Shown here piece by piece: positions 981 through 16,217 of a stretch of 64,000 nucleotides of DNA. This DNA is from Escherichia coli (lineage in GTDB: Bacteria; Pseudomonadota; Gammaproteobacteria; Enterobacterales; Enterobacteriaceae), in the NCBI RefSeq assembly GCF_029227855.1, contig NZ_CP074356.1. One strand, given 5' to 3'. How positions within the stretch are numbered: position 1 is the first letter of the stretch; each line of letters begins with the position of its first letter. Both the position numbers and the translations under genes were made by a program. The notes below the pieces were generated by a model. That model had not been told where the DNA came from, did not search any database, and saw only the letters and a program-made list of their open reading frames with translations.

Positions 981-984
981 CGTC

Positions 985-1377: not shown

Positions 1378-1399
1378 CTTTAGGGATATTCCTTCTGAG

Positions 1400-2716
1400 T
1401 TACGCGAATGCCGCCATGCTGGCTTTCATGGTGTACACCTCGACCAGCGTGTTGGTGTACTCCTCGAGATAACGGTCGTAGTTGGCGTTATAGGTATCAG
1501 TAAGCTGATCGCCTTCGTCCTGAATTTTGCTCATCTGATCGTCAATGTTCTGCTGGCGCAGGGTGATGATGCCGTTGCTGGAGTCCGTGTAGGTGTTAAT
1601 CAGGTCGTCCATCTGCGCTACCATGCTGTTGTCGCCAACGAAAATAGAGGTCAGACCGTCAGGATTTTTCGCCATTTCGTCGTTGAACTGGTCGGAGTCA
1701 ATCTGTAAGTGGCCGTGAGAATCGAGGGTGATGCCATAGTCAACAATCGACACGCCGTTGTAGCTGACATGGGCGATGTCATCGAGCTGGTTCGCCAGTG
1801 AACTGAGTCCGGCGTCGCCTGCAAATACCCCGGCGCTGGTACTGTCATCACCGTGAGTGGTTAGCGAATCAACCGTATCGATCAGGGTGTTATAGGCATC
1901 GACAAAGGTCTGCACTTTCTCCTGGCTGGCGCTGGAATCTTCGCTAATGTTAAAGGTAGTGAGGTCGCTGTCAGAATCGCTGACTTCGGTGAAAGTCATG
2001 GTGACGCCGGGGATCACATCATCAAACGTATTGCTGCTGTTTGTGATCTCAGGCCCCGTGGCGCTGCCAAGATGAATAATCGCGTCCTGAGCGGAGGAAA
2101 CATCCGTGGCAACGGGCGCGCTGGTGCTATCGTTGCTGCCGTCATGCCCCGTTACGCTCACCGAAAATGCGCTCTGCGCCCCGGTGCTATCGGAGGTGAG
2201 CATAATCGTGGTGGTGCCGTCGGTTTTTACCAGTGCCGCCGACACGCCCGGATTGTCATCAGAGTCGTTAATCGCATTCACCAGCTCGCTGGCGTCGATA
2301 AAACCGTCGCCGTCACCGTTCTGATCTGCCGCCGACAGATCAATATCCATGGTGCTGTCGCCCATCGTCAGTTCAAAAGTGCCGGTGGCGGAAAAGGTGT
2401 CGTCGCCCATACTGAACGTGGTTTGCTGCCCCTGCGCCAGTTGCTCAACGAAAAACGAGTAGCTTCCCGCCTGTGCCTGCGAGTTAGCGGAAACGGTCGC
2501 CGAGTCATTATTGCTGGTGGCGGCAAACGTCACCGGGCCGTCAGTATCGCTGTTCAGCGCGTCAACGGCGCTCTGAAAATCGCTCAACGCTGAGCTGAGC
2601 GAGTCCAGGCCGCTGCTTTCAGCGTCCAGCTCGGTCTGCTTCTCCTGCAAATTTGCCGCCTGGGTGGCGACATCCGCATAAGCAATTTCTTGCGCAATGG
2701 TTCTTGGGTTAATCAT
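1400..2716 (-). CDS. lafB: filament cap protein FliD/HAP2 (Flag-2 LafB), 438 aa
   Basis: ORF track; N- and C-terminal axial-protein heptads, Ser/Thr/Asp-rich central domain; GGAG Shine-Dalgarno before ATG at 2716. Confidence 0.8.
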   Translation of the reverse strand: MINPRTIAQEIAYADVATQAANLQEKQTELDAESSGLDSLSSALSDFQSAVDALNSDTDGPVTFAATSNNDSATVSANSQAQAGSYSFFVEQLAQGQQTTFSMGDDTFSATGTFELTMGDSTMDIDLSAADQNGDGDGFIDASELVNAINDSDDNPGVSAALVKTDGTTTIMLTSDSTGAQSAFSVSVTGHDGSNDSTSAPVATDVSSAQDAIIHLGSATGPEITNSSNTFDDVIPGVTMTFTEVSDSDSDLTTFNISEDSSASQEKVQTFVDAYNTLIDTVDSLTTHGDDSTSAGVFAGDAGLSSLANQLDDIAHVSYNGVSIVDYGITLDSHGHLQIDSDQFNDEMAKNPDGLTSIFVGDNSMVAQMDDLINTYTDSSNGIITLRQQNIDDQMSKIQDEGDQLTDTYNANYDRYLEEYTNTLVEVYTMKASMAAFA

Positions 2717-2747
2717 TGATGACTCCGGGTAACGATGTCAGGTTAAT

Positions 2748-2763
2748 GGCAAAAGGCGTGCCA
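2748..2763 (-). promoter_or_regulatory. candidate sigma54 (-24/-12) promoter for the lafB (fliD) operon
   Basis: Minus-strand sequence TGGCACGCCTTTTGCC matches TGGCACG-N4-TTGC; lies about 30 nt upstream of the lafB start codon. Confidence 0.5.
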
Positions 2764-2850
2764 ATATTTTTTATGTGAATAATCAATAGATTGAAAAACA
2801 GGCGGAAATGACGTTTCCGGTCTGGCGGAAAAAAGCCTGCCGCAGAAAGC

Positions 2851-2876
2851 ACAACACCGCCTGCAGGCGGTGTTGT
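2851..2876 (-). terminator. hairpin downstream of flagellin gene (possible intrinsic terminator)
   Basis: Perfect 11-bp inverted repeat acaacaccgcc/ggcggtgttgt with 4-nt loop; on the minus strand a T6 run follows about 14 nt after the stem, so the U-tract is not immediately adjacent. Confidence 0.4.
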
Positions 2877-2920
2877 TCGTGGCCGGGTAAGGCGTTTACG
2901 CCGCATCGGCAAGTCCGCCA

Positions 2921-3835
2921 TTACTGCAGCAGGCTGGAAACCATGCTGGACATGCTGTTGGACTGTTTCAGCATGGTGATGCCGGTCTGCATCAGCACCT
3001 GTTGTTTGGTCATGTTGGACGCTTCCGTCGCGTAGTCGGTATCCATGATGTTACCGATAGCAACTTCGGTGTTGTCCTGCATGCTGGTCAGGTTATTAGC
3101 CGTGTCGTTCAGACGGTTGATAGACGCACCCAGTTTGGACTGGATCTGAGACACGTCATCCATCGCGGTAGAGATGCTGGTGATCATCTGGTTAGCCGAG
3201 CCAGACGCAGTCAGCTCAGTACCGCCAGAAACGCCTGCGGTGCCCGTGGTGTCAGCCTGATCCGCACTAAAGGAGCTGCTGATAGCAGAAAGATCAGTCA
3301 CCAGGGTATTCAGCTGGCTTGAAATATTCACGGTCATGGTGTCGGAAGATTCCGCGCCCACCTGGAAAGTTACCGCGCTCTGGAACAGACCGTCAGTACC
3401 GGTGTTGCTGGTGCCGGAAACACCGAACAGGTTGGTGCCGCCGTAAGTGGTGTTTTGCAGCATGTCAGACATCTGCTGGCCCAGTTCGTCGTATTCGTCC
3501 TGCATCGCCTGCAGGTCGTCGTCGCTGTAGGTGCCGTTCGCTGCCTGAGTTGACAGGTCTTTCATACGACCCAGCACGTCAGACATTTCGTCGAACATGC
3601 TGTCAGCGGTTTGCAGCATCGCGGTGGCATCATTGATGTTGCTCAGCGCCACCCCCATACCGCTGGACTGTGCTGTCAGACGGTTAGCAATTTGTTTGCC
3701 TGCGGCGTCATCGGCAGAAGAGTTAATCCGGTTACCTGTCGCCAGGCGTTCCATAGATGTAGACAGAGAAGAGCTGCTTTTGCTGATTGCATTAACGGCG
3801 GCCATTGAGGCGTTATTGGTGTTAATAGATAACAT
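2921..3835 (-). CDS. lafA: lateral-type flagellin (Flag-2 LafA), 304 aa
   Basis: ORF track; start placed at internal ATG giving MLSINTNNASMAAVNAI... (flagellin N-terminus) with AGGAG Shine-Dalgarno; ends ...SSLLQ; the longer track ORF (from 3901) is an upstream in-frame extension. Confidence 0.9.
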   Translation of the reverse strand: MLSINTNNASMAAVNAISKSSSSLSTSMERLATGNRINSSADDAAGKQIANRLTAQSSGMGVALSNINDATAMLQTADSMFDEMSDVLGRMKDLSTQAANGTYSDDDLQAMQDEYDELGQQMSDMLQNTTYGGTNLFGVSGTSNTGTDGLFQSAVTFQVGAESSDTMTVNISSQLNTLVTDLSAISSSFSADQADTTGTAGVSGGTELTASGSANQMITSISTAMDDVSQIQSKLGASINRLNDTANNLTSMQDNTEVAIGNIMDTDYATEASNMTKQQVLMQTGITMLKQSNSMSSMVSSLLQ

Positions 3836-4271
3836 GATACTGCTCCTTGGGATTAATCGTTTTCGTTTCGATACCCTGTAAAAACGACACCTCGGGAGCA
3901 AACTTAAAACCGCCGTTAAAATTTTTTCGCCACGTATTATCCGATGCCACTTTTAGCTAAAAAAAAACAGAGTTTAAATTCAGATAAAAAGATTATTAGC
4001 AATATCTGCCACATGGCCAGGTATCAAAATATGTCTTTATCAATTGCTTGATATAGTTAAGATTATCATCAATTACCGCGTTTTCTTATCAATGTACTGA
4101 TGCCAAAATTTACATTGCGTTGCAAATAGTACACATTTGGCTATTGTACCTGTCCTGTCATTTCGTTACATTTCCACGCTATATAGTGATTAAGAATAAT
4201 CTTATCACCATAAAATTATTAATTATCACGCAGAAAAATCATCTTCTCAGGGACGTATAAGACTGTGCTTT

Positions 4272-5165
4272 ATGCAAAGCACTATCAGGAAACATTTATC
4301 CCTTGCTAAGGTAAACTCAACTATGAGTATTATTATCAACAACTGGCGGATGGACCCGTCGCTTAATGCCTTAATACATTGCGAAACGGGTGAAACACGT
4401 CGTCTCGGCGAATACCATTTTATTTTGCTGGAAACATTAGCAAAAAATGCCGATGTGGTTTTATCGCGATCTTATTTATGTGCCGAAGTATGGAAGAACC
4501 GCATTGTCGGCGGTAACAGCCTGCCGACGGCGATCCACGCTCTGCGCGTTGCCATTGATGATGACGGCAAGCAACAGAACATTATTAAAACTATCCCGAA
4601 AAAAGGGTACCTGTGCAATAAAGAGTATGTGTCTTTGCCGGAGTCATCGCCTGCGGAAGCGCTGATTATTACCGACCAGATACAGGAAACAGTACCAGAA
4701 GAGATATCTTCTACAACACCGCCTGTGCCTGTTAGAAAAAAACATAAAGGACTGATGGGGTTAGCGTTGACCGCGGCTGTTATATTTATTGGCTCGACCG
4801 TGGGGTATTCACACTTGAAAAGTACACCTGACGCCCCGCAACTGGTAAAAGAGTCAATTAACAGTCCAAGAATAAAAATATTTCATCTTAGTTCTGGAAA
4901 AGAAAATAATTCCGCACCGTTACTGTCACAAACCCTCGCACCAGGAAAAGACAAACTCGATAATTTATTGTCAGCGCATAATATGACAATGACAACCTAT
5001 TATAAATATGTTCGTAACCGACTGGAGAGTGATATTGTTCTGCGCAACCAGTGCAATGGTAGCTGGCAATTAACCTTTAATGTGGATGAGTGGCAGAATA
5101 GCGATATTAATAGCGCGATGTATCAGAATTTAGAGAAGTTGTTAAATACTGTGCAGAAATGCTGA
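4272..5165 (+). CDS. ToxR/CadC-like membrane-anchored transcriptional regulator (winged-helix OmpR-type DNA-binding domain, one TM segment, periplasmic domain); possibly the Flag-2 lafZ
   Basis: ORF track; N-terminal region ...YLCAEVWKNRIVGGNSLPTAIHALRVAIDD... resembles trans_reg_C winged helix; hydrophobic stretch GLMGLALTAAVIFIGSTVGY; AT-rich gene and upstream region. The true start may be the ATG at 4323. Confidence 0.6.
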   Translation: MQSTIRKHLSLAKVNSTMSIIINNWRMDPSLNALIHCETGETRRLGEYHFILLETLAKNADVVLSRSYLCAEVWKNRIVGGNSLPTAIHALRVAIDDDGKQQNIIKTIPKKGYLCNKEYVSLPESSPAEALIITDQIQETVPEEISSTTPPVPVRKKHKGLMGLALTAAVIFIGSTVGYSHLKSTPDAPQLVKESINSPRIKIFHLSSGKENNSAPLLSQTLAPGKDKLDNLLSAHNMTMTTYYKYVRNRLESDIVLRNQCNGSWQLTFNVDEWQNSDINSAMYQNLEKLLNTVQKC

Positions 5166-5180
5166 CGAGTGCCAATATCA

Positions 5181-5213
5181 GCCGGATGCGACGCTAAAGG
5201 CGTCTTATCCGGC
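5181..5213. repeat. REP (repetitive extragenic palindromic) element
   Basis: gccggatgcgacgctaaaggcgtcttatccggc, close to the enterobacterial REP consensus; sits between convergent genes. Confidence 0.6.
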
Positions 5214-5219
5214 TGATAA

Positions 5220-6197
5220 TTACCCCAATAAATTCCTCACCGTCTGACTGGAAATTCGCGCCTGACCATTCACCGCCTGCAATAAAACTTGATAGTTATG
5301 ATTGGCGCTATCCAGCACGCCGCCGAGATTTTCCGACGCCTGCACGGCGCTTTCCGTTTGCGGGAAGCGCGACATGCCGTCGATCAACTGCCGCGCCTTT
5401 TCCTGCTGTACCGCCATCTGCACACGCTGCTGATTAATGCTTTCTAACGTCTGAGAAATCCCCGCTCCGCCCTGTTGCAGGCTTTGCACTAAGCGGTCCG
5501 CCTGCGACGGTTCGGCAAAGGTTTTTAGTGGCATAAACGCTGATTTATCACCATCGGTGCGCACGCTTAGGGTGCTTTCAATGTTGGGCCACTGTTTTTC
5601 AGTGGTGGAGAAACTTATACCATCGGCGTTTTGATGCATCTGCACGCCCACGCGGCGCAGGGCGTTGGTCAGCCGCGTCTGGTACTGCCCAGCGCTGTCA
5701 TCCTCAGACAGCATCACCGCCGAAAGCTGAGTCTGCCGCCCGTCAGAGACGCTGAACATGCGCGTTCCCGGCGTGGGATTGTGTACGAGATTCGCCAGAT
5801 CCGGCGAGTGAAAAGTCACCCGCGCTTCCCCCTGCAACACTGGCTGCAACTGGCGGTCCACCGCACCGCCGGAAAGCGCGGTGCGTTTGTCCAGCATCTG
5901 CATCAGCGCCGAACTCTGCGCCTGCCCGCCCTTACGCTGGCTATGACGATAATCGAGCAACTGCTGCTCCAGTTGCCCGAGATAGTGATCCGCCTGCTGC
6001 AACGTGGTGAGCTGGTCGTTAAGCTGCACGCTGTAACGCTGCGGGCGAGTGGTAATCAGCGGCGAGGCCGGATATTCACTCGCCGTCGCCGGGAGTTTTT
6101 GCCGCACCTCCTGAGTGGGCGCAACGGTTGACGACGATACCGCAACGCTATGCGCGCCGCCGGTGGCGAGTGACGAAGATGTAAATCCGACCTGCAT
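5220..6197 (-). CDS. hypothetical Flag-2 protein, 325 aa, with flagellar axial-protein-like C-terminus (possibly lafW)
   Basis: ORF track; C-terminus ...NHNYQVLLQAVNGQARISSQTVRNLLG resembles the C-terminal helix of flagellar export substrates; directly downstream of flgL in the same orientation. Confidence 0.4.
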   Translation of the reverse strand: MQVGFTSSSLATGGAHSVAVSSSTVAPTQEVRQKLPATASEYPASPLITTRPQRYSVQLNDQLTTLQQADHYLGQLEQQLLDYRHSQRKGGQAQSSALMQMLDKRTALSGGAVDRQLQPVLQGEARVTFHSPDLANLVHNPTPGTRMFSVSDGRQTQLSAVMLSEDDSAGQYQTRLTNALRRVGVQMHQNADGISFSTTEKQWPNIESTLSVRTDGDKSAFMPLKTFAEPSQADRLVQSLQQGGAGISQTLESINQQRVQMAVQQEKARQLIDGMSRFPQTESAVQASENLGGVLDSANHNYQVLLQAVNGQARISSQTVRNLLG

Positions 6198-6213
6198 ACT
6201 GTTCCTGAAAGAG

Positions 6214-7143
6214 TTAGAGAACGCTGAACAAATTCAACTCACTCACTTTCGAGTAAGTCTTGAGGGTAGCTTCCATTGCTACTTCCAGTCCGGTAAAGGT
6301 GATCGACGCCGGGCCGTAATCGAGATCCTGTAATGAACCAATCAGCTCATCATTAGAGGTAGAGATATCGGTCTGCGCATCGCTCAACATCGACATGGTG
6401 TTCTGCGTCTCGCCGAGCGACGCAATCGAGGCGTTGAGGTTATCCGAGGCGGTGTCCACCACATCAACGGCGTTCTGAATATCGCTCTGCACCTGCGGAT
6501 CGGCCGGGTCAACGTTTGGGTCTTGCAACTCCTGGGAGAGCGAATTGAGCGTGTTGAGCACATCTAAATTGCTGCCGAAGAAATCGCTCGCCGCCACGTT
6601 GGTATCCACTTCCACGCCGTTCGACACCGTGGTCTGGCGGTGGTCGCTGTTGCCCTGATAGCTGTAGCTATCGGTCACGCCGTCGCCGTCATCGTCCACC
6701 GCCACAATCGGCGGCTGATCGTTGATAGTGCCGCCAAACACGTAGTGCCCGTCTTCGTCCTGATAGTTCAGCGCCGCGACCATTGATTCGGTGAGCGACT
6801 CAATATCCTGCCCGAGACTTGCGAGCGAATCGGCGGTATTGGTGCCATTCGCCGCTTCCAGCAGGTCGTCGCGCACCGCCAGCAGGCTGTTGTTGACGCC
6901 ATCAAGGATTGATTCCTGCTGACTTAACCCCGCCGACGCGGAGTCGATATTGCTCTGATACTGCTCAATCGCCGACTGTTGGCGGTTCAACTGGGTGATG
7001 CGCGTGGCGGCGATCGGGTCATCCGACGGCTGCAAAATCTGCTTGCCGGTTGCCATCTGCTCGACCACATGCGCCAGATCGCCGGAGAGATTATTAAAAC
7101 TTTGCGTCATCGAGACGTAGGTTTGTTGGGTGGTTACTTGCAT
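6214..7143 (-). CDS. lfgL: hook-associated protein FlgL/HAP3 (Flag-2 LfgL)
   Basis: ORF track; start moved to the internal ATG (MQVTTQQTYVSM...) preceded by a GGGAG Shine-Dalgarno, 14 bp after the flgK stop. Confidence 0.8.
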   Translation of the reverse strand: MQVTTQQTYVSMTQSFNNLSGDLAHVVEQMATGKQILQPSDDPIAATRITQLNRQQSAIEQYQSNIDSASAGLSQQESILDGVNNSLLAVRDDLLEAANGTNTADSLASLGQDIESLTESMVAALNYQDEDGHYVFGGTINDQPPIVAVDDDGDGVTDSYSYQGNSDHRQTTVSNGVEVDTNVAASDFFGSNLDVLNTLNSLSQELQDPNVDPADPQVQSDIQNAVDVVDTASDNLNASIASLGETQNTMSMLSDAQTDISTSNDELIGSLQDLDYGPASITFTGLEVAMEATLKTYSKVSELNLFSVL

Positions 7144-7157
7144 TTTCGCGCTCCCGC

Positions 7158-8534
7158 TTAGCTGCACATTTCCAGCACCGAATCGAAAATCTCGGCCCCG
7201 GCGGAAATGACTTTCAGATTGGCTTCATAAATTTGTTGATAGGTGATCAGGTTAACCGCCTCTTCGTCCATGCTGACGCCGCTGACGCTGCTCTGCTGGT
7301 TTTGCGCTGCGGAATAGACATTGGACGCGGCATCGACTTCCGTCTGGTTTTGCTGGCTGTAAATGCCGATATTGCTGATGATTGACGAGCACGCCTGCCC
7401 GACCGTCACGCTGCCGAGGTTGGCTATTTCCAGCGGTTCGGTGGAGATATTGATCAGCGCCTGGAGGTTGTCGCTGTTGCCGCTTTCGTCCGGCGAACTG
7501 GAGAACGCCAGCTCATCGGCGGTGATATCCGGGTTAACGGTCAGCGGGCCATCGGCGTTGCTGGCGTCATAAATAAACAGCGGCTCGCCGGGGTTACCGT
7601 TGAGATCGTAGCCCTGCGCCAGCTGGTTGTTAACCGCATCGGCGAACTGCGACGCCATACTGTTGATGGTGTCGGTCAGCGGCGTCAGCACGTCGTTTTG
7701 ATAATCAAACAGTGCGCCTAATGAACCGCCGGTGTCGGTAGTCATCGTCGAGGTGGTGCCAGCGAAAGTCAGCGACATGGTCGGCGTGCCGTCGGCGTTG
7801 GTTTCCAGCTCGATGGTCGAGCTTTGCTGCCCGCTCACCAGCGGTTGACCGTTTTTCAGGGTAACGTTGTAGTTGCCCTGGTCGTCGATATTGACCTGCA
7901 CATCCATCATGCCGCTCAGTTCTTCCACCATCTGATCGCGGGCGTCGTACAGCGCGGAGGCGTTATCGCCGTTGGCTTCGGCCTGAGCGATTTGCTGGTT
8001 ATAGCTGGCGATGCCGCTGGTGAGCGTGTTGATTTGCGACACCATTGCCTGCTGCTGGCTGATGAGTTCCGTGCTTTGCGAGTCGATGTAATCCAGCGTG
8101 TTGTCGATACGCAGCGACAGCGCCCCGGCTTCGCTGATCACCTGCTCGCGCAGGGCGGAATCATCGGGGCTGGTGGTCGCTTCGTTAAGGGCGGCGAAGA
8201 AGTTATCGAACCCGCCGCTCAGGCTGCTGTTATCGTCGTTCAGTACCGCTTCCAGTTGCGTGAGATACCCCTGCTGGGTGCTGTAATAGCCGTAATCACT
8301 GGCGGCATACCACACCTGATTCACCTGATACTGGTTAGAGACGCGGCGAATGCTGTCGACCTGCACGCCGTTACCGGCGCTGTTCGGCGAACCACCGCTG
8401 GCGCCGATGGTGCTGATCTCCGCCACCTGGCGGGTGTAGCCCGTGGTCATGGCGTTGGCGGTGTTTTGCGCCGTGACGTTCAGCTCCACCTGCGCGGTTG
8501 ATGCGCCGCTGTAGCCGATGTTAATCATATCCAT
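7158..8534 (-). CDS. lfgK: hook-associated protein FlgK/HAP1 (Flag-2 LfgK)
   Basis: ORF track, 458 aa; axial-protein N-terminus (...GASTAQVELNVTAQNTANAMTTGY) and C-terminal heptads. Confidence 0.85.
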   Translation of the reverse strand: MDMINIGYSGASTAQVELNVTAQNTANAMTTGYTRQVAEISTIGASGGSPNSAGNGVQVDSIRRVSNQYQVNQVWYAASDYGYYSTQQGYLTQLEAVLNDDNSSLSGGFDNFFAALNEATTSPDDSALREQVISEAGALSLRIDNTLDYIDSQSTELISQQQAMVSQINTLTSGIASYNQQIAQAEANGDNASALYDARDQMVEELSGMMDVQVNIDDQGNYNVTLKNGQPLVSGQQSSTIELETNADGTPTMSLTFAGTTSTMTTDTGGSLGALFDYQNDVLTPLTDTINSMASQFADAVNNQLAQGYDLNGNPGEPLFIYDASNADGPLTVNPDITADELAFSSSPDESGNSDNLQALINISTEPLEIANLGSVTVGQACSSIISNIGIYSQQNQTEVDAASNVYSAAQNQQSSVSGVSMDEEAVNLITYQQIYEANLKVISAGAEIFDSVLEMCS

Positions 8535-8610
8535 GTTGGATCCTTACCGGTAAATCGTGCCGGTTAAAAGCGGCGTTAGGTTGGGGATTCTTAAGTGGGA
8601 GGTGGTGCCC

Positions 8611-8910
8611 TCATTTATGCTTCGGCGACAACTGCTTCACAATCATCGCCGCGATCCCAATCCCGTGCTGCTGCGCCAGGGTGTTACACAACTCATCGTC
8701 ATAAAACCCCTGCATCATGCGCGCCGAATCGCTGTTAAACGGGTTATCTTTTGAATCAAACAACTCGTTGGTTTTACGCATCTCTTTGAGCATATTGCGT
8801 AAAAAAATCGCCTCAAACTGTTCGGCGGCCTGCCTGATATCATTGGCCTGAACCTTCGGCCCCATTAACGCATCGCTGCCGTCAATCCCGCCGCTGCCGT
8901 TAACTTTCAT
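8611..8910 (-). CDS. lfgJ: FlgJ rod-binding domain only (Flag-2 LfgJ), 99 aa; no muramidase domain
   Basis: ORF track; ...FEAIFLRNMLKEMRKT...MMQGFYDDELCNTLAQQHGIGIAAMIVKQL matches the FlgJ N-terminal rod-binding domain. Confidence 0.7.
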   Translation of the reverse strand: MKVNGSGGIDGSDALMGPKVQANDIRQAAEQFEAIFLRNMLKEMRKTNELFDSKDNPFNSDSARMMQGFYDDELCNTLAQQHGIGIAAMIVKQLSPKHK

Positions 8911-10025
8911 CAGATCACCTCCAGGTCGGCATCCAGCGCGCCCGCCTCATGCAGCGCCTGCAAAATCGACATAATGTCATCCGGCGTCGCGCCTAAACTG
9001 TTCAGCGCATTGACCAGCGTTTTCAGGCTGCTCGACTCCGGCAAACTCACCACGCCCGGACGGGCATGATTCACCGCGATATTGCTCTGCGGCGTTACCG
9101 CCGTGCGCCCGCCCGCAAACGCATTCGGCTGGCTGACGTTGCTGGTTTCGTTAATCGAGACGGTCAAACTGCCGTGCGACACCGCCGCCGCGTGCAGCGC
9201 GACGCCATCGCCCATCACCACCGTGCCGGTACGCGAGTTAAACACCACGCGGGCGTGGATTTTCTCCGCCTGCACCTGTACGTCATCCAGTTGCGACATA
9301 AACGCCACCCGCGCGCCGGGGCTGGTCGGCGCACGCACAGTAACGTTGGTGGAACTCTGCGCCGTGGCAATGCCGCCAAACGAGGCGTTGATCGCCGCCG
9401 CAATGTTGTTGGCGTCTTTAAACGACGGGCGTTTCAGGTTGAGGGTGATGGTATCGCCCATCTGAAAATCGCTGGGGATCTCGCGCTCCACCGTTGCGCC
9501 GTTAGGAATTAACCCGGCGGTTGGTGTATTAACCGTTACGCTCGAGCCGCTTGCCCCGGTGGCATTCATCCCACCCACCACCACGCTGCCCTGCGCCAGG
9601 GCATATACTTCGCCATCCGCGCCGTGCAACTGCGTAAGCAATAAAGTGCCGCCGCGAATACTTTTGGCATCTCCAATCGACGAAACGGTGACATCAATAG
9701 TCTGCCCGCGCGAGTACATCGGCGGCAATGTGGCGCTCACCGCCACTGCGGCGACGTTTTTCACCTTCGGGTCGATTTTATTCGGCAACTGCACGCCAAA
9801 CTGGCGCAGCATATTGGTGATGGTCTGGTTGGTGAATTTGACCTGGTTTTTATCACCGGTACCGTCGAGGCCGACCACCAGGCTGTAGCCGACCAGTTGG
9901 TTTTCACGCACGCCCTGTACGTTAACCAGCGACTCCAGCGATTGCGCCAGCGCCACGCCGGGCAGCGTCAGACTTACGGCGATCGCTGCGGCCTTTATCC
10001 AGTTTTGCATTGCACTCTCCGGCAT
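8910..10025 (-). CDS. lfgI: flagellar P-ring protein FlgI (Flag-2 LfgI)
   Basis: ORF track, 371 aa with signal peptide; FlgI family by eye; start/stop overlaps with neighbours. Confidence 0.9.
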
Positions 10026-10690
10026 TAAATCGGGAACAGAGGATGGTTAAACAACCGCGTCAGCCAGCCTGCGGCGTTGGCGTCGCTTAACGCGCCGCGT
10101 CCGGCATAGGAGATGCGGGCGTCGGCGATCCGCTGGGAGGAAACCGAGTTATCGTTCTGGATATCATCGGCGCGCACAAGGCCGCTTAAACGGATGTACT
10201 CATCGCCCTGGTTGAGGGTGAGCCATTTTTCGCCGCGAATTTCCAGGATGCCGTTGGGCTGCACCGCATGGACGGAAACAGTGATCTCCCCGCGCAGGCT
10301 GTTCTGCTGCTGGGAAGTGGCGCTGCCGTCAAAGTCGCGGTTCGCGTCGATGGAGCCGGAAAGCTTATCTTTGGTGTGACCAAAAATCGTCGGCGCGCCG
10401 ATGTTGACGGTGTTGTTTTTGCCGAAGTTGGTTTTCGCCTGTTTGCTCGACTGGGTGGATTCTTCGAGGATCACCGTCAGGATATCGCCCACGCGGTAAG
10501 CTCGCCGGTCGGCGGTGAGCGACCAGTTGTAGCCGGTTTCAAACACGCCCCCGGCACGCCCGTCTGCCGGAGGCGGCTCTTCGGTTTTCGGTGGCGCAAA
10601 GTATGCGTCGTCTTTTTTGACCAGAATGGCCTGCGATTCACACCCGCTAAGCAGGGGAAACAGCGCCACCAGCCAGAGATAATTTTTCAC
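10025..10690 (-). CDS. lfgH: flagellar L-ring lipoprotein FlgH (Flag-2 LfgH)
   Basis: ORF track, 221 aa; lipobox LLSGC; FlgH family. Confidence 0.9.
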
Positions 10691-10731
10691 GTTCTGCCTG
10701 TTTTAAATACAGTGAGTTATGCGCTTTTGTA

Positions 10732-10763
10732 GGTCGGATAAGACGCGTCAGCGTCGCATCCGA
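10732..10763. repeat. REP-like palindromic element in the flgG-flgH intergenic space
   Basis: ggtcggataagacgcgtcagcgtcgcatccgac; reverse complement resembles the REP consensus. Confidence 0.5.
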
Positions 10764-10772
10764 CATTTCGCC

Positions 10773-11558
10773 TTACAGCGTCTGGCTGATGTACTGCAAC
10801 ATATCGTCCGCCGCCGACACCATTTTGGCGTTCATCTCGTACGCGCGTTGCACCGTAATCATCGCCACCATTTCGTTGACGATATCCACGTTCGATCCTT
10901 CCAGCGCGTTGTCCTGCAAGGTGCCAAGCCCATCTTCACCCGGCACCCCTTCGGTCGGCTGGCCGCTGGCGGCGGTTTCCAGATAGAGGTTGTCACCCTC
11001 GGCAGAAAGCCCCGCCGGGTTAGCGAAGTTAACCAGCGTCAGTTGCCCTAACTCGGTCACGTCGCTGTCGCCAGGTAAGATCGCCGTCACCGTGCCGTCC
11101 TCACCAAAAGCAACATTAGTCGCCCCCGCCGGAACGTCGATTTCCGGCTGTAACGGCAAGCCTTGCGAGTTGGTCAGCACGCCGTCGGCGTTCACCTGCA
11201 AGTTGCCGTCGCGGGTATAGGCGATATCGCCGTTGGCCTTTTGCACCTGCAAAAACCCCTGCCCCATAATGGCGACATTCATCGCGTTGTCGGTGGTTTC
11301 AACGTTGCCTTCGGTGAAGGTTTTCTGAGTGCCGACAATGCGCACGCCGCTACCGAATTGCAGCCCGGTCGGCATGATGTTGTTCTGGTCGAGCATCGCG
11401 CCCGGCGCTTCCTGGGTCTGGTAGAACAGATCCTGAAACATCACCCGGTCGCGCTTGAAGCCGGTGGTGTTAACGTTGGCGATGTTGTTGGCAATCGCGC
11501 TCATTTCAGCATCCTGCGCCGAGAGGCCGGTTTTGCTGATCCATAATGCTGCGTTCAT
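10773..11558 (-). CDS. lfgG: distal rod protein FlgG (Flag-2 LfgG)
   Basis: ORF track, 261 aa; MNAALWISKTGLSAQDAEMSAIANNIANVNTTGFK... typical FlgG. Confidence 0.9.
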   Translation of the reverse strand: MNAALWISKTGLSAQDAEMSAIANNIANVNTTGFKRDRVMFQDLFYQTQEAPGAMLDQNNIMPTGLQFGSGVRIVGTQKTFTEGNVETTDNAMNVAIMGQGFLQVQKANGDIAYTRDGNLQVNADGVLTNSQGLPLQPEIDVPAGATNVAFGEDGTVTAILPGDSDVTELGQLTLVNFANPAGLSAEGDNLYLETAASGQPTEGVPGEDGLGTLQDNALEGSNVDIVNEMVAMITVQRAYEMNAKMVSAADDMLQYISQTL

Positions 11559-11584
11559 GGTGGTTTATTCCCTGGTGTCTGTTA

Positions 11585-12322
11585 TCACGAGCCGCGCAAT
11601 AAGCGGTTGCCCGCGTCGCTGATATCTTCGGCGGTTTTCATCATCTTGATCTGCGCCTCAAACTGGCGGTTCATGGCGATGGACGACATCATTTCGCTCA
11701 CCGCCGAGACGTTGCTGCCTTCGAGAAAACCGCCACTGACTTTGATATTTTCATCGCGCTGGGCCGGAACGCCGTCGGCAGTTATCAGCATCCCTTCAGG
11801 ATTTTTCGCCAGGTTAGCAACCGGAATATCCACCAGCTTCAGGCGGTCGATATCCATCGTCGCGGTCACGTCGCCGTCATCGGGCGTCACCGACAGCGTG
11901 CCGTCGCTGCCAAACGAGGCGATGGCGTTCGGCGGCAGAATGATCGGCCCGTTATCCCCCAGCACCAGATTGCCGTCGATGGTCAGTTGCCCCTGGTCAT
12001 CCTGCTGAATGTTGCCGTTGCGGGTGTAGACTTCGTTGCCGTTTTTATCCTGCACCGCAATGTAACCCGCGCCCTGAATCGCCACGTCCAGCGGGCGTTC
12101 GGTTTTCTCCGCAACACCGGTGCTGTCGTTCACGCCGCTGGCCCCTTCCTGCGCCATATAGCGCGTGTCGAAGCCGCCGCCTTTCACCTTGTCGTTGGTC
12201 GCCATCGCCATATCGGCACGAAAACCATTGGTGTTGACGTTCGCCAGGTTATTGGCGCTAATTTGCTGCTCGTACAGAGTCTGAGAAGCCCCACTCAGGG
12301 CGGTATAAATCAGGCGATCCAT
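11585..12322 (-). CDS. lfgF: proximal rod protein FlgF (Flag-2 LfgF)
   Basis: ORF track, 245 aa; rod-protein N-terminal motif. Confidence 0.85.
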   Translation of the reverse strand: MDRLIYTALSGASQTLYEQQISANNLANVNTNGFRADMAMATNDKVKGGGFDTRYMAQEGASGVNDSTGVAEKTERPLDVAIQGAGYIAVQDKNGNEVYTRNGNIQQDDQGQLTIDGNLVLGDNGPIILPPNAIASFGSDGTLSVTPDDGDVTATMDIDRLKLVDIPVANLAKNPEGMLITADGVPAQRDENIKVSGGFLEGSNVSAVSEMMSSIAMNRQFEAQIKMMKTAEDISDAGNRLLRGS

Positions 12323-13524
12323 TACATTGCCTGGAACAGCGCGTCATCGAGCTGCGTGCTGGTAGCGATAACTTTGGTGTTGGCCTGATAGTTACGCTGG
12401 GCGGTCATCAGGTTGACCAGTTCGCTGGTGATATCGACGTTAGAGCTTTCGAGCACGCCGGACGACAGCGTGCCGCAGGTGCCGGAGCCGGGAACGCCAA
12501 TCAGCGGGGTGCCGGACTCGCCCGTTTGTACCCACGCGGTGCCGCTCACTGCCTCCAGGCCGTTTTCATTCGGGAAAGTCGCCAGCACCACCTGCCCCTG
12601 CAACATGCGCTCGCCGTTGCTGTAGGTGGCGTAAACTTTGCCATCGTCATCAACCTGCACACCGTTTTGCGTTGCGGAGGCGTAGCCGTTGGCAGCGTTG
12701 GTGGTGACCGAGAAGTCCGAGCCGTATTGCGTACAAGTGGTGTAATCGACGGTTAAGTCGATGGGTGCGGCGGCGTCGGTCTGAAACTCAATGGTCTGTG
12801 GCGTGGTTGGCGAGGTCAGCTTCCCGGTATTCGGGTCGAAAGTTAAGGTCGTCGCCGGAACGCCAGTCTGCTGCTGACCGTCGAAGGTGTACTGCACTTC
12901 CCAGGTGTTTTCGCTGGTTTTGGTGAAATACTGGCATACCGAGTGTTCGTTACCTAATGAGTCATACACCGTGGTGGTGTAGCTGTCGGTGTACGAGCTG
13001 CTGTTGGTGGCGTCGAACGGTACGGTTGTACGGTCGATAGCTTCATCGCTGGCGTTGAAGTTAGCGGTAAAGGTCAGGCTGCTGCTGGCCTGCGCCGGGA
13101 TATTGCCGGTTTTGATCTGGATATCGGTGACCGTACCGGTTTGCAAAGTGCCGCTGTCATCGACCGGATACCCCTGCAAATAAGCGCCCGAGGCGTTGAC
13201 GATATAGCCGTTTTTGTCGGTTTCAAACGATCCGGCGCGGGTATAAGAAATGTTGCCCGCGCTGTCGCAGGTAACAAAAAAGCCATCGTTGTTAATCGCT
13301 AAATCGAGCGCGTTACCGGTGGAGACCAGCGAACCGCCACGCGAAATGCTCTGCGCGGTGCCTGCCACGCTGACGCCCATCGCCTGACTTCCGGCATACA
13401 TGGCGGAAAACTGGGTGGTCATCGACTTATAGCCCACCGTTCCGGCGTTGGCGATGTTGTTACTGATCCCGTCCAGCTGTTCGTTAACGGCATTCAGCCC
13501 CGTTGCGGCAATTTCATAACTCAT
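12322..13524 (-). CDS. lfgE: hook protein FlgE (Flag-2 LfgE)
   Basis: ORF track, 400 aa; axial N/C termini; position between flgD and flgF. Confidence 0.85.
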   Translation of the reverse strand: MSYEIAATGLNAVNEQLDGISNNIANAGTVGYKSMTTQFSAMYAGSQAMGVSVAGTAQSISRGGSLVSTGNALDLAINNDGFFVTCDSAGNISYTRAGSFETDKNGYIVNASGAYLQGYPVDDSGTLQTGTVTDIQIKTGNIPAQASSSLTFTANFNASDEAIDRTTVPFDATNSSSYTDSYTTTVYDSLGNEHSVCQYFTKTSENTWEVQYTFDGQQQTGVPATTLTFDPNTGKLTSPTTPQTIEFQTDAAAPIDLTVDYTTCTQYGSDFSVTTNAANGYASATQNGVQVDDDGKVYATYSNGERMLQGQVVLATFPNENGLEAVSGTAWVQTGESGTPLIGVPGSGTCGTLSSGVLESSNVDITSELVNLMTAQRNYQANTKVIATSTQLDDALFQAM

Positions 13525-13547
13525 TGTTTCGTCCTGTTAATTGATTC

Positions 13548-14261
13548 TTACGCCACATCACTGTCGGCATCGGGTACGCCAAACTGGCTAATCATGGTGA
13601 ACGGCACTTCGCCCACGCCTGCAACATTGAGCACCGGAGAGCTGCCGTCGAGCGGGATGCGTACATCTTCCACTTCGCCGGAAACTTCAATCGGCACCTC
13701 TTCTTCCCCGGTGTTGGTCACCACCGAGACGTCGTAATCACCCGGCGGGATACCGTAATCCGCCGGATTAATCGAGAAATCCACCTGGCCTGGCCCGACG
13801 GACGAACTGCCTTCCGGGATCAGCGACACCGTATAGTCATCGCCTGCGGCATCGGTAAAGTGGAGATCGGCGGTGGTACAGGCGTCGTCAAGCGTGGCGC
13901 GACCATTAATGGTCTGGTCGCTCACCTGCAAGGCGGTGGTCTGCACCATAATGTCGTCACCCACCAGGTTGCCGAGCGCCATTACCTGAATGTTGCTCAT
14001 CAGCACCGCGTTGGTGTTGGCCTGCACGCTCATCTCTTCCATCATCGCCACCTGCGCCATCGACGAAAGCTGGTCGATGTATTCGGTGGCGTCAGTCGGG
14101 TCGGTCGGGTCCTGGTTTTGGATCTCGGCGACAAACAGCGTCAGGAAGGTATCGACGGGCGAGCTATCGCTGCTGCTTGTCGTGTCGCTGGCCGCCACGT
14201 TGTTGCTTTCCGCCGTGGCGGTCGGCTGCGGCGATTGCGCATTCAGCGCCAGGGTATTCAT
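13548..14261 (-). CDS. lfgD: hook capping/assembly protein FlgD (Flag-2 LfgD)
   Basis: ORF track, 237 aa; FlgD-like N-terminus (…FLTLFVAEIQNQDPTDP…). Confidence 0.8.
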   Translation of the reverse strand: MNTLALNAQSPQPTATAESNNVAASDTTSSSDSSPVDTFLTLFVAEIQNQDPTDPTDATEYIDQLSSMAQVAMMEEMSVQANTNAVLMSNIQVMALGNLVGDDIMVQTTALQVSDQTINGRATLDDACTTADLHFTDAAGDDYTVSLIPEGSSSVGPGQVDFSINPADYGIPPGDYDVSVVTNTGEEEVPIEVSGEVEDVRIPLDGSSPVLNVAGVGEVPFTMISQFGVPDADSDVA

Positions 14262-14692
14262 CAGGCTTCTCCCAGTTTCAGCAGGCTTTGCTGCATACTT
14301 TTCACGTTGTTGAGCACATCGACGTTGGTTTCAAAATCGCGCGAGGCCGACATCATGTCCGCCATCTGTTCCACCACGTTGACGTCGGGATACCAGACAT
14401 CTCCGTTAGCATCCGCCAGCGGCGAATGCGGTTCATAGCGTTTCACCGCCCCGCCGGTTTGCAGCACGTCCTGCACCTGCACGCTGGCACCGTCAATGGC
14501 ATGGCGATGTGTACCCGCCAGCAAGCTGTGGTGATACACCGCCGCAAACACCGGGCTGCGCGCTTTATACGCCTGCGCCTCGCTGCTGGCGGGTGCATTG
14601 GCATTCGCCAGGTTACTGGCAACGGTATTCAGACGTAGCGTTTGCGCTGTCATCGCCGAACCGGAAATCTGATAGATATCAGTAAATGACAT
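14261..14692 (-). CDS. lfgC: rod protein FlgC (Flag-2 LfgC), apparently intact
   Basis: ORF track, 143 aa, MSFTDIYQISGSAMTAQTLRLNTVASNLANA...; no frameshift visible. Confidence 0.9.
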   Translation of the reverse strand: MSFTDIYQISGSAMTAQTLRLNTVASNLANANAPASSEAQAYKARSPVFAAVYHHSLLAGTHRHAIDGASVQVQDVLQTGGAVKRYEPHSPLADANGDVWYPDVNVVEQMADMMSASRDFETNVDVLNNVKSMQQSLLKLGEA

Positions 14693-14694
14693 GC

Positions 14695-15030
14695 TTATTT
14701 CCCTTCAATGGCCTCTCTGATGCCGCTGATTTGCAGATTCAGGAAGGTCAGACTGCTTTGATAATCCATACTATTTTGTGAAAACCGCGCCTGTTCGCTG
14801 TTCAGCTCCACGGTGTTGCCATCTTCCGACGGCTGCATCGGCACGCGGTACTGGACATCCACCGCCGCGTTATTTGCCCGTTGCATCTCCCTGGCAAAAT
14901 CAATATCTTTAGCCTTGAAATTTGGCGTATCGACGTTCGCCAGATTCGCAGTCAGTAGCTCGGTCCTCTCAAGACGTAACTTCACTGCCTGCGGATGTAC
15001 TCCCAATGCCTGTTGAAAACTGATCCCCAT
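14695..15030 (-). CDS. lfgB: rod protein FlgB (Flag-2 LfgB)
   Basis: ORF track; start moved to the internal ATG at 15030 (MGISFQQALG...) because the predicted sigma54 promoter would place the transcription start near the first ATG at 15060. Confidence 0.8.
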   Translation of the reverse strand: MGISFQQALGVHPQAVKLRLERTELLTANLANVDTPNFKAKDIDFAREMQRANNAAVDVQYRVPMQPSEDGNTVELNSEQARFSQNSMDYQSSLTFLNLQISGIREAIEGK

Positions 15031-15066
15031 TTCCTGCGTCACTCCTGCTTCAATCCGCATACGCTA

Positions 15067-15082
15067 GGCAATTACCGTGCCA
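15067..15082 (-). promoter_or_regulatory. candidate sigma54 (-24/-12) promoter for the flgB operon
   Basis: Minus-strand sequence TGGCACGGTAATTGCC matches TGGCACG-N4-TTGC; in the short divergent flgB/flgA intergenic region. Confidence 0.55.
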
Positions 15083-15111
15083 TTTTTTAAGTGACTGATG
15101 AGAAAGGGTTT

Positions 15112-15849
15112 ATGAGTTTTCAATTTTGCAGGCGGAAGTTTTATTTCCTCCTGGCGCTGGCCTTACCGGGCTACGCCGCCGTCTACCCCGTGCAACACAG
15201 CGCGCGGGAACAAGTCAACGCCCAGGTGCTGAATGCCGCGAGCCAGCAGATTGAATCGCTGGCGCAGCAGCGGCAGTGGCATGACTATCGCTACACCTTT
15301 AAGGTCTACATTCCCTCGCAGATTGCGACCGCTGCGCCCTGTGCTGCGGCACCCGGCGTCACGCTGACGTCGCCTGTGGACATCGCCCTCAACCGCATGA
15401 ACTTCACCGTCAGTTGCCCGCAAAGCTGGCAGATGAACGTGGCGGTGCGCCCGGATGTGCTGGTGCCGGTGGTGATGACAAAGTCACTGGTTGCCCGCGA
15501 TACGCCGCTCACGGCGAATGATGTGGAGCTGAAGCCCTACAACGTCAGCGCCCAGCGTCGCGATGTGTTGATGGAGCTTGATGACGCAATTGGTTTAAGC
15601 AGTAAGCACGCGCTGCAGCCGGGCAGGCCAATCACCAAAGAAGAGCTGGTCTCTCCGGTACTGATCGAGCGCGATCAGCCGGTGATGATTGTTTACCAGA
15701 ACGCGGGGATCACCGCCTCGATGCCCGGCGTGGCGCTGAAAAATGGCCGCAAAGGCGAGATGGTGAAAGTACGTAACGCAAGCAGCCAGCGGGTCATCAG
15801 CGCGATGGTGGCGGAAAGCGGCGTGGTGACAACGGTAAGCGCGGAGTAA
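15112..15849 (+). CDS. lfgA: P-ring assembly chaperone FlgA (Flag-2 LfgA)
   Basis: ORF track; start set at the ATG at 15112 (MSFQFCRRKFYFLLALALPGYAA, signal-like); divergent from flgB. Confidence 0.7.
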   Translation: MSFQFCRRKFYFLLALALPGYAAVYPVQHSAREQVNAQVLNAASQQIESLAQQRQWHDYRYTFKVYIPSQIATAAPCAAAPGVTLTSPVDIALNRMNFTVSCPQSWQMNVAVRPDVLVPVVMTKSLVARDTPLTANDVELKPYNVSAQRRDVLMELDDAIGLSSKHALQPGRPITKEELVSPVLIERDQPVMIVYQNAGITASMPGVALKNGRKGEMVKVRNASSQRVISAMVAESGVVTTVSAE

Positions 15850-15929
15850 TTTGCGCAGGCGATTAAAGTTTTGCCGCCTGTTAACCGCTTTACCGGAGTA
15901 ACACACCTTCAAACAGAGACGAGGTTGCG

Positions 15930-16205: not shown

Positions 16206-16217
16206 GAGGCCGATGAA

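What the first reader, a model, noticed from the sequence alone, without database searches (positions are those of the whole stretch)
8611..8910. FlgJ reduced to the rod-binding domain
The flgJ-position gene encodes only 99 aa matching the FlgJ N-terminal rod-capping domain, with no muramidase domain. The peptidoglycan-cleaving activity needed for rod penetration must therefore come from another gene, inside or outside this locus.
Basis: partly seen in the sequence, partly recalled or inferred. Interest (0 to 1): 0.3.

Follow-up and report, generated by a model that had tools for sequence, protein, structure and literature searches.

The report
Flagellar rod cap lacking wall-cutting domain
In the second (Flag-2, lateral-type) flagellar gene cluster of E. 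coli, the gene in the flgJ position encodes only the 99-residue rod-cap part. This is a conserved and already annotated state; what is new is a testable candidate for the lost cell-wall-opening job, the orphan endopeptidase YafL at the edge of the cluster.

Summary
Window 8611-8910 (-) is lfgJ of the E. coli Flag-2 locus. It encodes 99 aa with one Pfam domain (Rod-binding, PF10135), its start overlaps the lfgI stop, and only 76 bp separate it from lfgK. No GH73 or SLT remnant occurs anywhere in the 64 kb. The same short gene is in 1273 of 5426 complete E. coli genomes and in all Enterobacterales Flag-2 loci sampled. It is under purifying selection, and PGAP already names it 'rod-binding protein'. 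So the finding itself is known and ordinary.

Related lateral-type clusters each carry one wall-hydrolase module of varying type:
- GH73 fused to FlgJ (Plesiomonas)
- SLT fused to FlgJ (Pseudomonas otitidis, Parazoarcus)
- a stand-alone GH73 gene after flgN (beta-proteobacteria)

Enterobacterales Flag-2 has none of these. Instead a YafL-type NlpC/P60 endopeptidase (window 34371-35129, -) lies at the cluster border in 8 of 8 genera sampled and 11 of 11 informative metagenome loci. Its paralogue MepH is never placed there (0 of 24, plus one genome control). In several genera the gene runs on directly from lafU.

I propose that YafL opens the wall for Flag-2. This rests on gene neighbourhood only. 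I found no paper making the link.

The parts
8611..8910 (-). lfgJ: 99-aa stand-alone rod-binding (rod cap/scaffold) protein of Flag-2. It has a disordered N-terminus (1-16) and three helices (17-49, 61-80, 86-94).
   Evidence: ORF; Pfam PF10135 only; PGAP 'rod-binding protein'; AF2 model pLDDT 72; conserved length in homologues; purifying selection.
8918..8922 (-). Shine-Dalgarno GGAGG, 7 nt before the lfgJ ATG and inside the end of lfgI. The ATG overlaps the lfgI TGA by one base, which suggests translational coupling.
   Evidence: Read directly from the sequence. K-12 flgI/flgJ have the same 1-nt overlap.
8910..10025 (-). lfgI, P-ring protein, immediately upstream of lfgJ in the same operon.
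   Evidence: Pfam FlgI E 9e-134; annotation.
7158..8534 (-). lfgK, hook-associated protein 1. It starts 76 bp after the lfgJ stop, which bounds the space available for any lost domain.
   Evidence: Pfam FlgK_D1; sequence.
1..33882 (.). The part of the Flag-2 (lateral-type) flagellar locus held in the window, running from within lafE to lfhA. All genes are intact, including lfgC and lfhB. None encodes a peptidoglycan glycosidase.
   Evidence: Pfam and annotation; lfhB 379 aa with NPTH motif; tblastn negative for GH73/SLT.
34371..35129 (-). yafL: Sec-signal-bearing NlpC/P60 (C40) endopeptidase, convergent with lfhA. It is the proposed wall-opening partner of Flag-2. Catalytic C150, H205 and E217 are conserved, and a family-specific helical N-terminal region spans about residues 39-87.
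   Evidence: Pfam NLPC_P60 E 3e-33. Adjacent to Flag-2 in 8/8 genera and 11/11 informative metagenome loci, against 0/24 MepH-type loci. Clade sister to MepH. Invariant residues. AF2 model.
15067..15082 (-). Sigma-54-type promoter-like site (TGGCACGGTAATTGCC) just upstream of lfgB, the likely start of the lfgB-L operon that contains lfgJ.
   Evidence: Pattern search with 1 mismatch. The total number of matches in the window is not above chance, so only the position is suggestive.

Best explanation
LfgJ is the rod cap/scaffold of the E. coli Flag-2 (lateral-type) flagellum. It is a small three-helix protein with a disordered N-terminus. I infer, by homology with the N-terminal half of FlgJ, that it is exported by the Flag-2 type III apparatus and sits on the growing rod. 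It has no enzyme activity of its own.

The ancestral GH73 muramidase half was lost in the lineage leading to the Enterobacterales Flag-2 systems. The peptidoglycan gap for the rod is therefore made in trans by a periplasmic enzyme exported through Sec, as in other single-domain FlgJ systems.

The best candidate is YafL (window 34371-35129), an NlpC/P60 endopeptidase related to the cross-link-cleaving enzyme MepH. It would widen the mesh by cutting peptide cross-links rather than glycan strands.

Shown here: domain content, conservation, the phylogenetic pattern of hydrolase modules, and tight genomic linkage of yafL with Flag-2.
Inferred: export route, rod capping, YafL enzymatic specificity, and YafL's role in rod passage.

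Sub-confidences: LfgJ is a hydrolase-less rod cap, 0.9. yafL belongs functionally to Flag-2, 0.75. YafL is the enzyme that lets the rod through, 0.4.
For: LfgJ. It has the Rod-binding domain only and occupies the flgJ position. Its length is conserved under purifying selection. The model has a disordered N-terminus and three helices.

One hydrolase module per cluster. Related lateral-type clusters each carry one wall-hydrolase module of interchangeable type:
- fused GH73 in Plesiomonas
- fused SLT in L040 and L043
- a stand-alone GH73 gene after flgN in 12 beta-proteobacterial loci
- none of these in 32 Enterobacterales Flag-2 loci within +-10 kb, nor in the whole E. coli locus

Flag-1 cannot be the general supplier. 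Tatumella ptyseos, Budvicia and Pragia lack Flag-1 yet are described as motile (PMC6993521).

Linkage of yafL to Flag-2:
- In Tatumella the YafL-like gene starts on the lafU stop codon.
- It follows lafU within 12-100 nt in Rosenbergiella, Cedecea and a Serratia sp..
- It lies beside lfhA in E. coli, Dryocola and Leminorella, and beside the lfhA'-lafU' scar in Atlantibacter and K-12.
- The outer flanks differ in every genus.
- In metagenome locus L104 it is squeezed between lafU and a convergent lfhA, with overlapping stop codons.
- In the metagenome sample, 11/11 YafL-type loci but 0/24 MepH-type loci are next to Flag-2 genes.
- A Y. pestis MepH control lies next to grxD/sodB.
- The GH73-bearing Plesiomonas cluster has no P60 gene after lafU.

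YafL as an enzyme. YafL-likes keep Cys/His/Glu and a signal peptide.
Against: - There is no experimental or expression evidence. No sigma-54-like site was found before yafL in E. coli.
- yafL is kept intact in 5405 of 5426 E. coli genomes although only 1273 have lfgJ. Its mature part is under purifying selection even against the Flag-2-less K-12 (dN/dS 0.03). That suggests a role not restricted to Flag-2.
- An endopeptidase is an unusual choice. The flagellar wall enzymes I know of are glycosidases or lytic transglycosylases.
- Because yafL shares an operon with the stator genes lafT and lafU, it could equally serve stator anchoring.
- Every E. coli genome but one also has the two-domain Flag-1 FlgJ (5425 of 5426).
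- Yersinia, Hafnia, Budvicia and Pragia Flag-2 loci were not checked for yafL.
- The lfhA end of the Plesiomonas cluster was not seen.
Confidence: 0.5

Rival explanations
1. LfgJ is a hydrolase-less rod cap, but the wall is opened by enzymes encoded elsewhere. In E. coli that would be the GH73 domain of the Flag-1 FlgJ or housekeeping lytic transglycosylases and endopeptidases (Slt70, MltA-G, MepS/M/H). YafL is linked to Flag-2 for another reason, for instance remodelling peptidoglycan where the LafT/LafU stator anchors.
For: - Flag-1 flgJ is in 5425 of 5426 E. coli genomes.
- yafL is retained in Flag-2-less genomes, so it can act independently of Flag-2.
- In four genera yafL is the gene after the stator genes lafT-lafU.
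- In other single-domain FlgJ organisms the partner is a lytic transglycosylase (PMC8517470).
- From my own knowledge, housekeeping Slt/MltD affect flagellar function in Helicobacter.
Against: - Flag-1 is absent from motile Flag-2-only taxa (PMC6993521), so it cannot be the general answer.
- Sister lateral clusters always encode their own hydrolase module, which argues that a dedicated enzyme matters.
- In the beta-proteobacterial clusters the stand-alone GH73 also lies in the string after lafU-flgN. Position next to stator genes therefore does not exclude a role in rod passage.
Confidence: 0.33
2. No dedicated wall opening is needed, either because Flag-2 is a cryptic, unexpressed relic in E. 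coli or because rods pass through gaps created by normal wall turnover. On this view the short lfgJ has no functional consequence.
For: - Flag-2 function has not been shown in E. coli. Strain 042 carries a frameshift mutation and most strains a deletion (PMC6993521).
- From memory, Salmonella FlgJ without its C-terminal half still gives weak motility.
Against: - All Flag-2 genes in the window are intact.
- lfgJ dN/dS is 0.04-0.12 in most unsaturated comparisons.
- Flag-2-only taxa are described as motile.
- Related clusters conserve a hydrolase module.
Confidence: 0.12
3. The 99-aa ORF is a truncated pseudogene or an assembly or sequencing artefact of a full-length flgJ.
For: None found.
Against: - The lfgJ gene is present full length, at 90-100% nucleotide identity, in 1273 complete genomes.
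- The short form is present in all 32 Enterobacterales loci sampled.
- There is a 76-bp gap to lfgK.
- No GH73 or SLT remnant occurs in any frame.
- The gene is under purifying selection.
Confidence: 0.01

Closest known systems
Two-domain FlgJ of Salmonella / E. coli Flag-1 (TIGR02541; Rod-binding PF10135 + Glucosaminidase PF01832)
   Same: Same gene position (after flgI with a 1-nt overlap, before flgK). The N-terminal rod-binding part is homologous: 35% identity to K-12 FlgJ residues 30-102.
   Different: LfgJ stops after the rod-binding part. It has no linker and no GH73 domain, and it fails the equivalog cut-off (68 vs 193 bits).
Single-domain FlgJ with a separately encoded, Sec-exported lytic transglycosylase: Rhodobacter sphaeroides FlgJ/SltF, Borrelia burgdorferi FlgJ/BB0259
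   Same: FlgJ lacks the enzyme domain and a separate periplasmic wall hydrolase is needed (PMC8517470). From my own knowledge, sltF lies in the flagellar cluster of R. sphaeroides. YafL likewise has a signal peptide and lies at the cluster border.
   Different: The candidate partner is an NlpC/P60 cysteine endopeptidase, which cuts peptide bonds, not a lytic transglycosylase. No interaction or phenotype is known. The system is a gamma-proteobacterial lateral-type flagellum.
MepH (YdhO) and MepS (Spr), E. coli NlpC/P60 murein endopeptidases
   Same: The YafL catalytic domain is about 51% identical to MepH. The YafL clade is sister to MepH, and the Cys and His residues are conserved. The fold matches MepS structures.
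   Different: YafL-likes have their own conserved helical N-terminal region (invariant R44, R48, L51, R82) and Glu as the third catalytic residue. They are always next to Flag-2 genes, whereas MepH never is.
Lateral flagellar FlgJ of Plesiomonas shigelloides (FlgJL, 328 aa) and, per the literature, Vibrio parahaemolyticus VPA0272
   Same: Same kind of flagellar system and the same gene order, including the LafW-like extra hook-associated protein.
   Different: Plesiomonas FlgJL keeps the GH73 domain and has no P60 gene after lafU. E. coli LfgJ has lost the domain.

Membership tests
Rod-binding protein family (Pfam PF10135) | Match to the family profile above the curated gathering score | tested here: met
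   53.6 bits vs cut-off 25.1, E 3e-14, residues 42-93 cover profile positions 1-51 of 51.
FlgJ, flagellar assembly peptidoglycan hydrolase (NCBIfam TIGR02541 equivalog) | Full-length match above the curated cut-off, i.e. both the rod-binding and glucosaminidase halves | tested here: not met
   68 bits vs cut-off 193. Only profile positions 21-91 of 294 are matched.
FlgJ, flagellar assembly peptidoglycan hydrolase (NCBIfam TIGR02541 equivalog) | Glucosaminidase (GH73, PF01832) domain present in the gene or directly downstream | tested here: not met
   No Pfam hit. Only 76 bp lie before lfgK. tblastn with GH73 queries found nothing in the 64 kb.
FlgJ orthologue by position (rod cap gene of a flagellar cluster) | Located between flgI and flgK in a flgB-L operon | tested here: met
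   lfgI 8910-10025, lfgJ 8611-8910, lfgK 7158-8534, all on the - strand. The same order holds in all related loci.
FlgJ orthologue by position (rod cap gene of a flagellar cluster) | Export by the flagellar type III system and binding to rod proteins | not testable with these tools
   Only indirect evidence: no signal peptide, and a disordered N-terminus of 16 residues in the model.
Single-domain FlgJ plus dedicated separately encoded wall hydrolase (SltF/BB0259 type) | FlgJ without an enzyme domain | tested here: met
Single-domain FlgJ plus dedicated separately encoded wall hydrolase (SltF/BB0259 type) | A wall hydrolase gene genomically linked to the flagellar cluster | tested here: met
   YafL-type NlpC/P60 gene lies at the Flag-2 border in 8/8 genera and 11/11 metagenome loci. 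The paralogue MepH is so placed in 0/24 metagenome loci, plus 1 genome control.
Single-domain FlgJ plus dedicated separately encoded wall hydrolase (SltF/BB0259 type) | The hydrolase is a lytic transglycosylase (SLT fold) | tested here: not met
   YafL is NlpC/P60 (Pfam E 3e-33; fold matches). No SLT gene lies in the locus.
Single-domain FlgJ plus dedicated separately encoded wall hydrolase (SltF/BB0259 type) | Physical interaction of hydrolase with FlgJ and a flagellar assembly defect in its mutant | not testable with these tools
   Needs pull-down or two-hybrid assays and mutant analysis.
NlpC/P60 (C40) peptidoglycan endopeptidases (for YafL) | Profile match above cut-off and a conserved catalytic Cys-His-polar triad | tested here: met
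   114 bits vs cut-off 23. C150, H205 and E217 are invariant in 27 YafL-likes. The catalytic domain model has pLDDT >90 and matches MepS, LytE and CwlO structures.

The most novel reading that the evidence does not exclude
YafL, an E. coli K-12 'y-gene' of unknown function, is the dedicated peptidoglycan-opening enzyme of the Flag-2 flagellum. It replaces the lost GH73 half of FlgJ and acts with or near the stand-alone rod cap LfgJ. This would be, to my knowledge, the first flagellar system whose rod passes the wall by cleavage of peptide cross-links by an NlpC/P60 endopeptidase rather than by cleavage of glycan strands. It would also explain why K-12 keeps yafL next to the lfhA'-lafU' scar.
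Probability: 0.35. Interest if true: 0.65.

Novelty: new variant of a known kind. Interest (0 to 1): 0.42.

Why it matters
The short LfgJ by itself changes nothing. Single-domain FlgJ proteins are well known, and this one is already annotated as a rod-binding protein.

What matters is the comparison across lateral-type clusters. The wall-hydrolase module is interchangeable (fused GH73, fused SLT, split GH73). In the Enterobacterales version the only wall enzyme that travels with the cluster is the NlpC/P60 endopeptidase YafL.

If YafL serves Flag-2, three things follow:
- An uncharacterised E. coli K-12 gene gets a function.
- There is a direct genetic handle on how flagella with a hydrolase-less FlgJ cross the wall in gamma-proteobacteria.
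- A peptide-cutting enzyme joins the list of enzymes that open the wall for envelope-spanning machines.

A yafL knockout in a Flag-2-motile species would test this.

Tried and rejected
- Hidden or frameshifted hydrolase. tblastn of K-12 FlgJ, Plesiomonas FlgJL, three stand-alone GH73 proteins and two SLT-fused FlgJs against the window found only the N-terminal match at 8617-8868.
- Other unknown Flag-2 genes as disguised hydrolases. LafD (669-980) and LafW (5220-6197) have no Pfam hit. The others are a methylase, a glycosyltransferase and a cytidylyltransferase. LafW is also present in clusters that keep GH73, so it is not a replacement.
- Solved structure of the rod-binding domain. None is in the PDB by sequence.
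- Co-regulation of yafL. A FliA-type pattern had no match. Sigma-54-like sites lie before lfgB, lafB and the methylase gene but not before yafL. The sigma-70 scan was uninformative.
- PGAP's 'frameshifted' flhB in strain JNEC-KY178. It does not apply to the window, whose lfhB is an intact 379-aa ORF colinear with an intact allele.
- P0419 (Y. pestis), first taken as a possible Yersinia YafL. It is MepH next to grxD/sodB and served as a negative control.
- A single-sequence SLT seed found no further SLT genes in the fetched loci. Its sensitivity is low.
- Ren et al. 2005 (PMC545627) and Garcia-Ramos et al. 2018 (PMC6153662) are not held, so I could not check whether they comment on LfgJ or yafL.
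- The De Maayer 2020 Flag-2 survey mentions neither FlgJ nor NlpC/P60.
- No searchable paper links yafL to flagella.

Full report
WHAT THE WINDOW IS. Window bases 5000-16000 are 100% identical to the chromosome of E. coli JNEC-KY178, and 1268 of 5426 complete E. coli genomes hold at least 80% of that stretch. The annotation of that record, together with Pfam scans, shows that window 1-33882 is the Flag-2 (lateral-type, secondary) flagellar locus. It runs from within lafE through lafD-A, lafW, lfgL-B, lfgAMN, a flagellin-modification block, lfiJ-E, lafK and lfiM-R to lfhB and lfhA. After it come a hicB-like gene, yafL, dpaA, yafJ, gmhA, fadE, ivy and a type VI secretion island. K-12 has the known lfhA'-lafU' deletion scar at this site.

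THE OBSERVATION. The ORF at 8611-8910 (-) encodes 99 aa. Its ATG shares one base with the lfgI stop codon and is preceded by GGAGG. lfgK starts 76 bp after its stop. The flgI/flgJ junction of K-12 has the same 1-nt overlap.

Pfam finds only PF10135 Rod-binding (E 3e-14, above cut-off). The two-domain FlgJ equivalog is matched only over its N-terminal 21-91 positions and fails its cut-off. K-12 FlgJ residues 30-102 align at 35% identity. Its GH73 half, stand-alone GH73 proteins and SLT-fused FlgJs find nothing in any frame of the 64 kb.

The gene is present full length in 1273 of 5426 E. coli genomes, always annotated 'rod-binding protein'. All full-length homologues in seven enterobacterial genera are about 99-106 aa. 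dN/dS against orthologues is 0.04-0.12 in most comparisons where dS is measurable. An AlphaFold model (pLDDT 72) shows a disordered N-terminus (1-16) and three helices. No solved structure of this domain exists.

It is also already known: PGAP names it correctly, and single-domain FlgJ proteins are an established class (PMC8517470).

WAS IT 'REDUCED'? A scan of one genome per species with LfgI returned 76 loci. I classified the flgJ-position gene in each:
- All 32 Enterobacterales Flag-2 loci have a 99-124-aa rod-binding-only protein and no GH73 or SLT gene within +-10 kb.
- Twelve beta-proteobacterial lateral-type loci (Comamonas, Aquincola, Ideonella, Craterilacuibacter, Methyloversatilis and others) have a short FlgJ plus a stand-alone ~250-aa GH73 gene directly after flgN. 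That gene has no signal peptide.
- Pseudomonas otitidis and Parazoarcus have a Rod-binding+SLT fusion.
- Plesiomonas lateral FlgJ (328 aa) and locus L050 have the Rod-binding+GH73 fusion.

These are true lateral-type clusters. They share LafW, LafS, LafT and LafU with E. coli Flag-2.

I built a neighbour-joining tree of six concatenated proteins (1588 columns), rooted on K-12 Flag-1. L050 and then Plesiomonas lateral fall outside a clade of Enterobacterales Flag-2 plus the beta and SLT groups (184/200 bootstraps). The Enterobacterales clade is recovered 200/200 times. The simplest reading is an ancestral fused GH73 that was lost or replaced in this clade. Distance trees are crude, so this is indicative only.

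WHERE DOES THE WALL-OPENING ACTIVITY COME FROM? Nothing inside the classical Flag-2 limits is a wall hydrolase. The Flag-1 FlgJ is present in 5425 of 5426 E. coli genomes and could in principle help. However, De Maayer et al. report that Tatumella ptyseos, Budvicia and Pragia have Flag-2, lack Flag-1 and are described as motile (PMC6993521).

I therefore walked along the T. ptyseos cluster. Its last gene, starting on the stop codon of lafU (motB), is a 248-aa NlpC/P60 protein. It is 40% identical over its full length to E. coli YafL. YafL is the gene that abuts the lfhA end of Flag-2 in the window (34371-35129, -; Pfam NLPC_P60 E 3e-33).

TESTING THE LINK. I picked full-length YafL-like proteins from homologue lists without knowing their context and looked at their neighbours:
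- Rosenbergiella, Cedecea and a Serratia sp.: directly after lafU on the same strand, with gaps of 12, 19 and 100 nt.
- Dryocola: beside lfhA.
- Leminorella: 7 kb from lfhA, across an inserted toxin/immunity island.
- Atlantibacter, which has no Flag-2: beside an lfhA'-lafU' scar like that of K-12.

The chromosomal genes on the outer side differ in every genus, so yafL travels with Flag-2 and not with a chromosomal neighbourhood.

A partial-coverage hit from Y. pestis proved to be MepH next to grxD/sodB. The GH73-bearing Plesiomonas cluster has no P60 gene after lafU.

An independent metagenome scan with the YafL alignment gave the same answer. Eleven YafL-type loci had usable flanks, and all eleven lie next to Flag-2 genes. 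Of 24 MepH-type loci of at least 6 kb, none do. By my own calculation the Fisher exact probability is about 2e-9.

In locus L104 the gene sits between lafU and a convergent lfhA with overlapping stop codons. This layout could give rise to both observed arrangements by a break on either side of yafL.

YafL-likes form one clade sister to MepH. They keep Cys150, His205 and Glu217 and have a signal peptide. They also share an invariant N-terminal helical region that MepH lacks. Only the catalytic domain has structural relatives.

CAVEATS. All of this is gene-neighbourhood evidence.
- yafL is intact in 5405 of 5426 E. coli genomes, far more than carry Flag-2. Its mature part is under purifying selection even against K-12 (dN/dS 0.03). 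Its synonymous divergence (0.33-0.40) is four times that of the neighbouring dpaA, yafJ and ivy, so it belongs to the old Flag-2-linked haplotype block.
- I found no promoter evidence tying yafL to Flag-2 in E. coli.
- Its position after the stator genes is equally compatible with a role in stator anchoring.
- No paper I could search links YafL or any NlpC/P60 enzyme to Flag-2. Two relevant papers were not available.

VERDICT. The added value is the pattern of interchangeable hydrolase modules in lateral-type clusters and the strong, apparently unreported linkage of the orphan endopeptidase YafL to Flag-2.

Noticed in passing
L036:3016-3828, L041:3570-4328, L044:3418-4188 (and 9 further beta-proteobacterial loci among L035-L049): 'Split FlgJ': lateral-type clusters of Comamonas, Aquincola, Ideonella, Craterilacuibacter, Methyloversatilis and others have a short rod-binding FlgJ plus a stand-alone ~250-aa GH73 gene right after flgN. 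That protein has an Ala/Pro-rich N-terminus and no signal peptide, which hints at type III rather than Sec export.
   Followed up: partly
L040:11057-12031 (Pseudomonas otitidis), L043:11053-12069 (Parazoarcus communis); also P0178, P0187, P0224: FlgJ proteins in which the rod-binding domain is fused to an SLT lytic transglycosylase domain instead of GH73.
   Followed up: partly
L104:1334-5934: Metagenome contig in which lafT, lafU and a YafL-like gene run straight into a convergent lfhA, with the two stop codons overlapping. This layout could give both the E. coli-type and the Cedecea-type positions of yafL.
   Followed up: yes
window 34371-35129 versus K-12 (L097:6713-7462): yafL differs from the K-12 allele at dS 0.33-0.40, whereas the adjacent dpaA, yafJ and ivy differ at 0.07-0.10. 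The signal-peptide region is replaced outright. In many genomes the last ~80 nt (the 5' end of the gene) do not align.
   Followed up: partly
window 15067-15082 (-), 2748-2763 (-), 16724-16739 (+): One-mismatch matches to the sigma-54 promoter consensus sit just upstream of lfgB, of lafB (fliD) and of the lysine-methylase gene. This fits LafK/sigma-54 control of these operons. The total number of matches in the window is not above chance.
   Followed up: no
window 33919-34344: A hicB-like antitoxin gene with no toxin gene annotated beside it lies between lfhA and yafL, where K-12 has rayT. It is followed by a 12-bp-stem hairpin at 34317-34344.
   Followed up: no
window 30666-31805: PGAP marks flhB (lfhB) of strain JNEC-KY178 as frameshifted. 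In the window lfhB is an intact 379-aa ORF with the NPTH autocleavage motif. The window is therefore not identical to that genome throughout. Its yafL is 100% identical only to strain 18KM2445.
   Followed up: yes
window 5220-6197: LafW ('flagellar hook-associated protein', 325 aa) has no Pfam domain. Yet it is conserved after flgL in most lateral-type clusters mapped here, including most beta-proteobacterial ones (a same-sized gene follows flgL in Plesiomonas). It is a marker of this flagellar lineage whose role is unknown.
   Followed up: partly
window 41700-64000: Beyond the Flag-2 and yafL region lie an ISAs1 remnant and a type VI secretion island: Rhs core protein 43861-48360, VgrG 48436-50577, Hcp, and tssB-K.
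   Followed up: no
L177:668-8363: In an unrelated metagenomic flagellar cluster with a long FlgJ-position ORF (343 aa; domains not checked), a distant NlpC/P60 gene lies two genes downstream of flgL. This may be coincidence.
   Followed up: no
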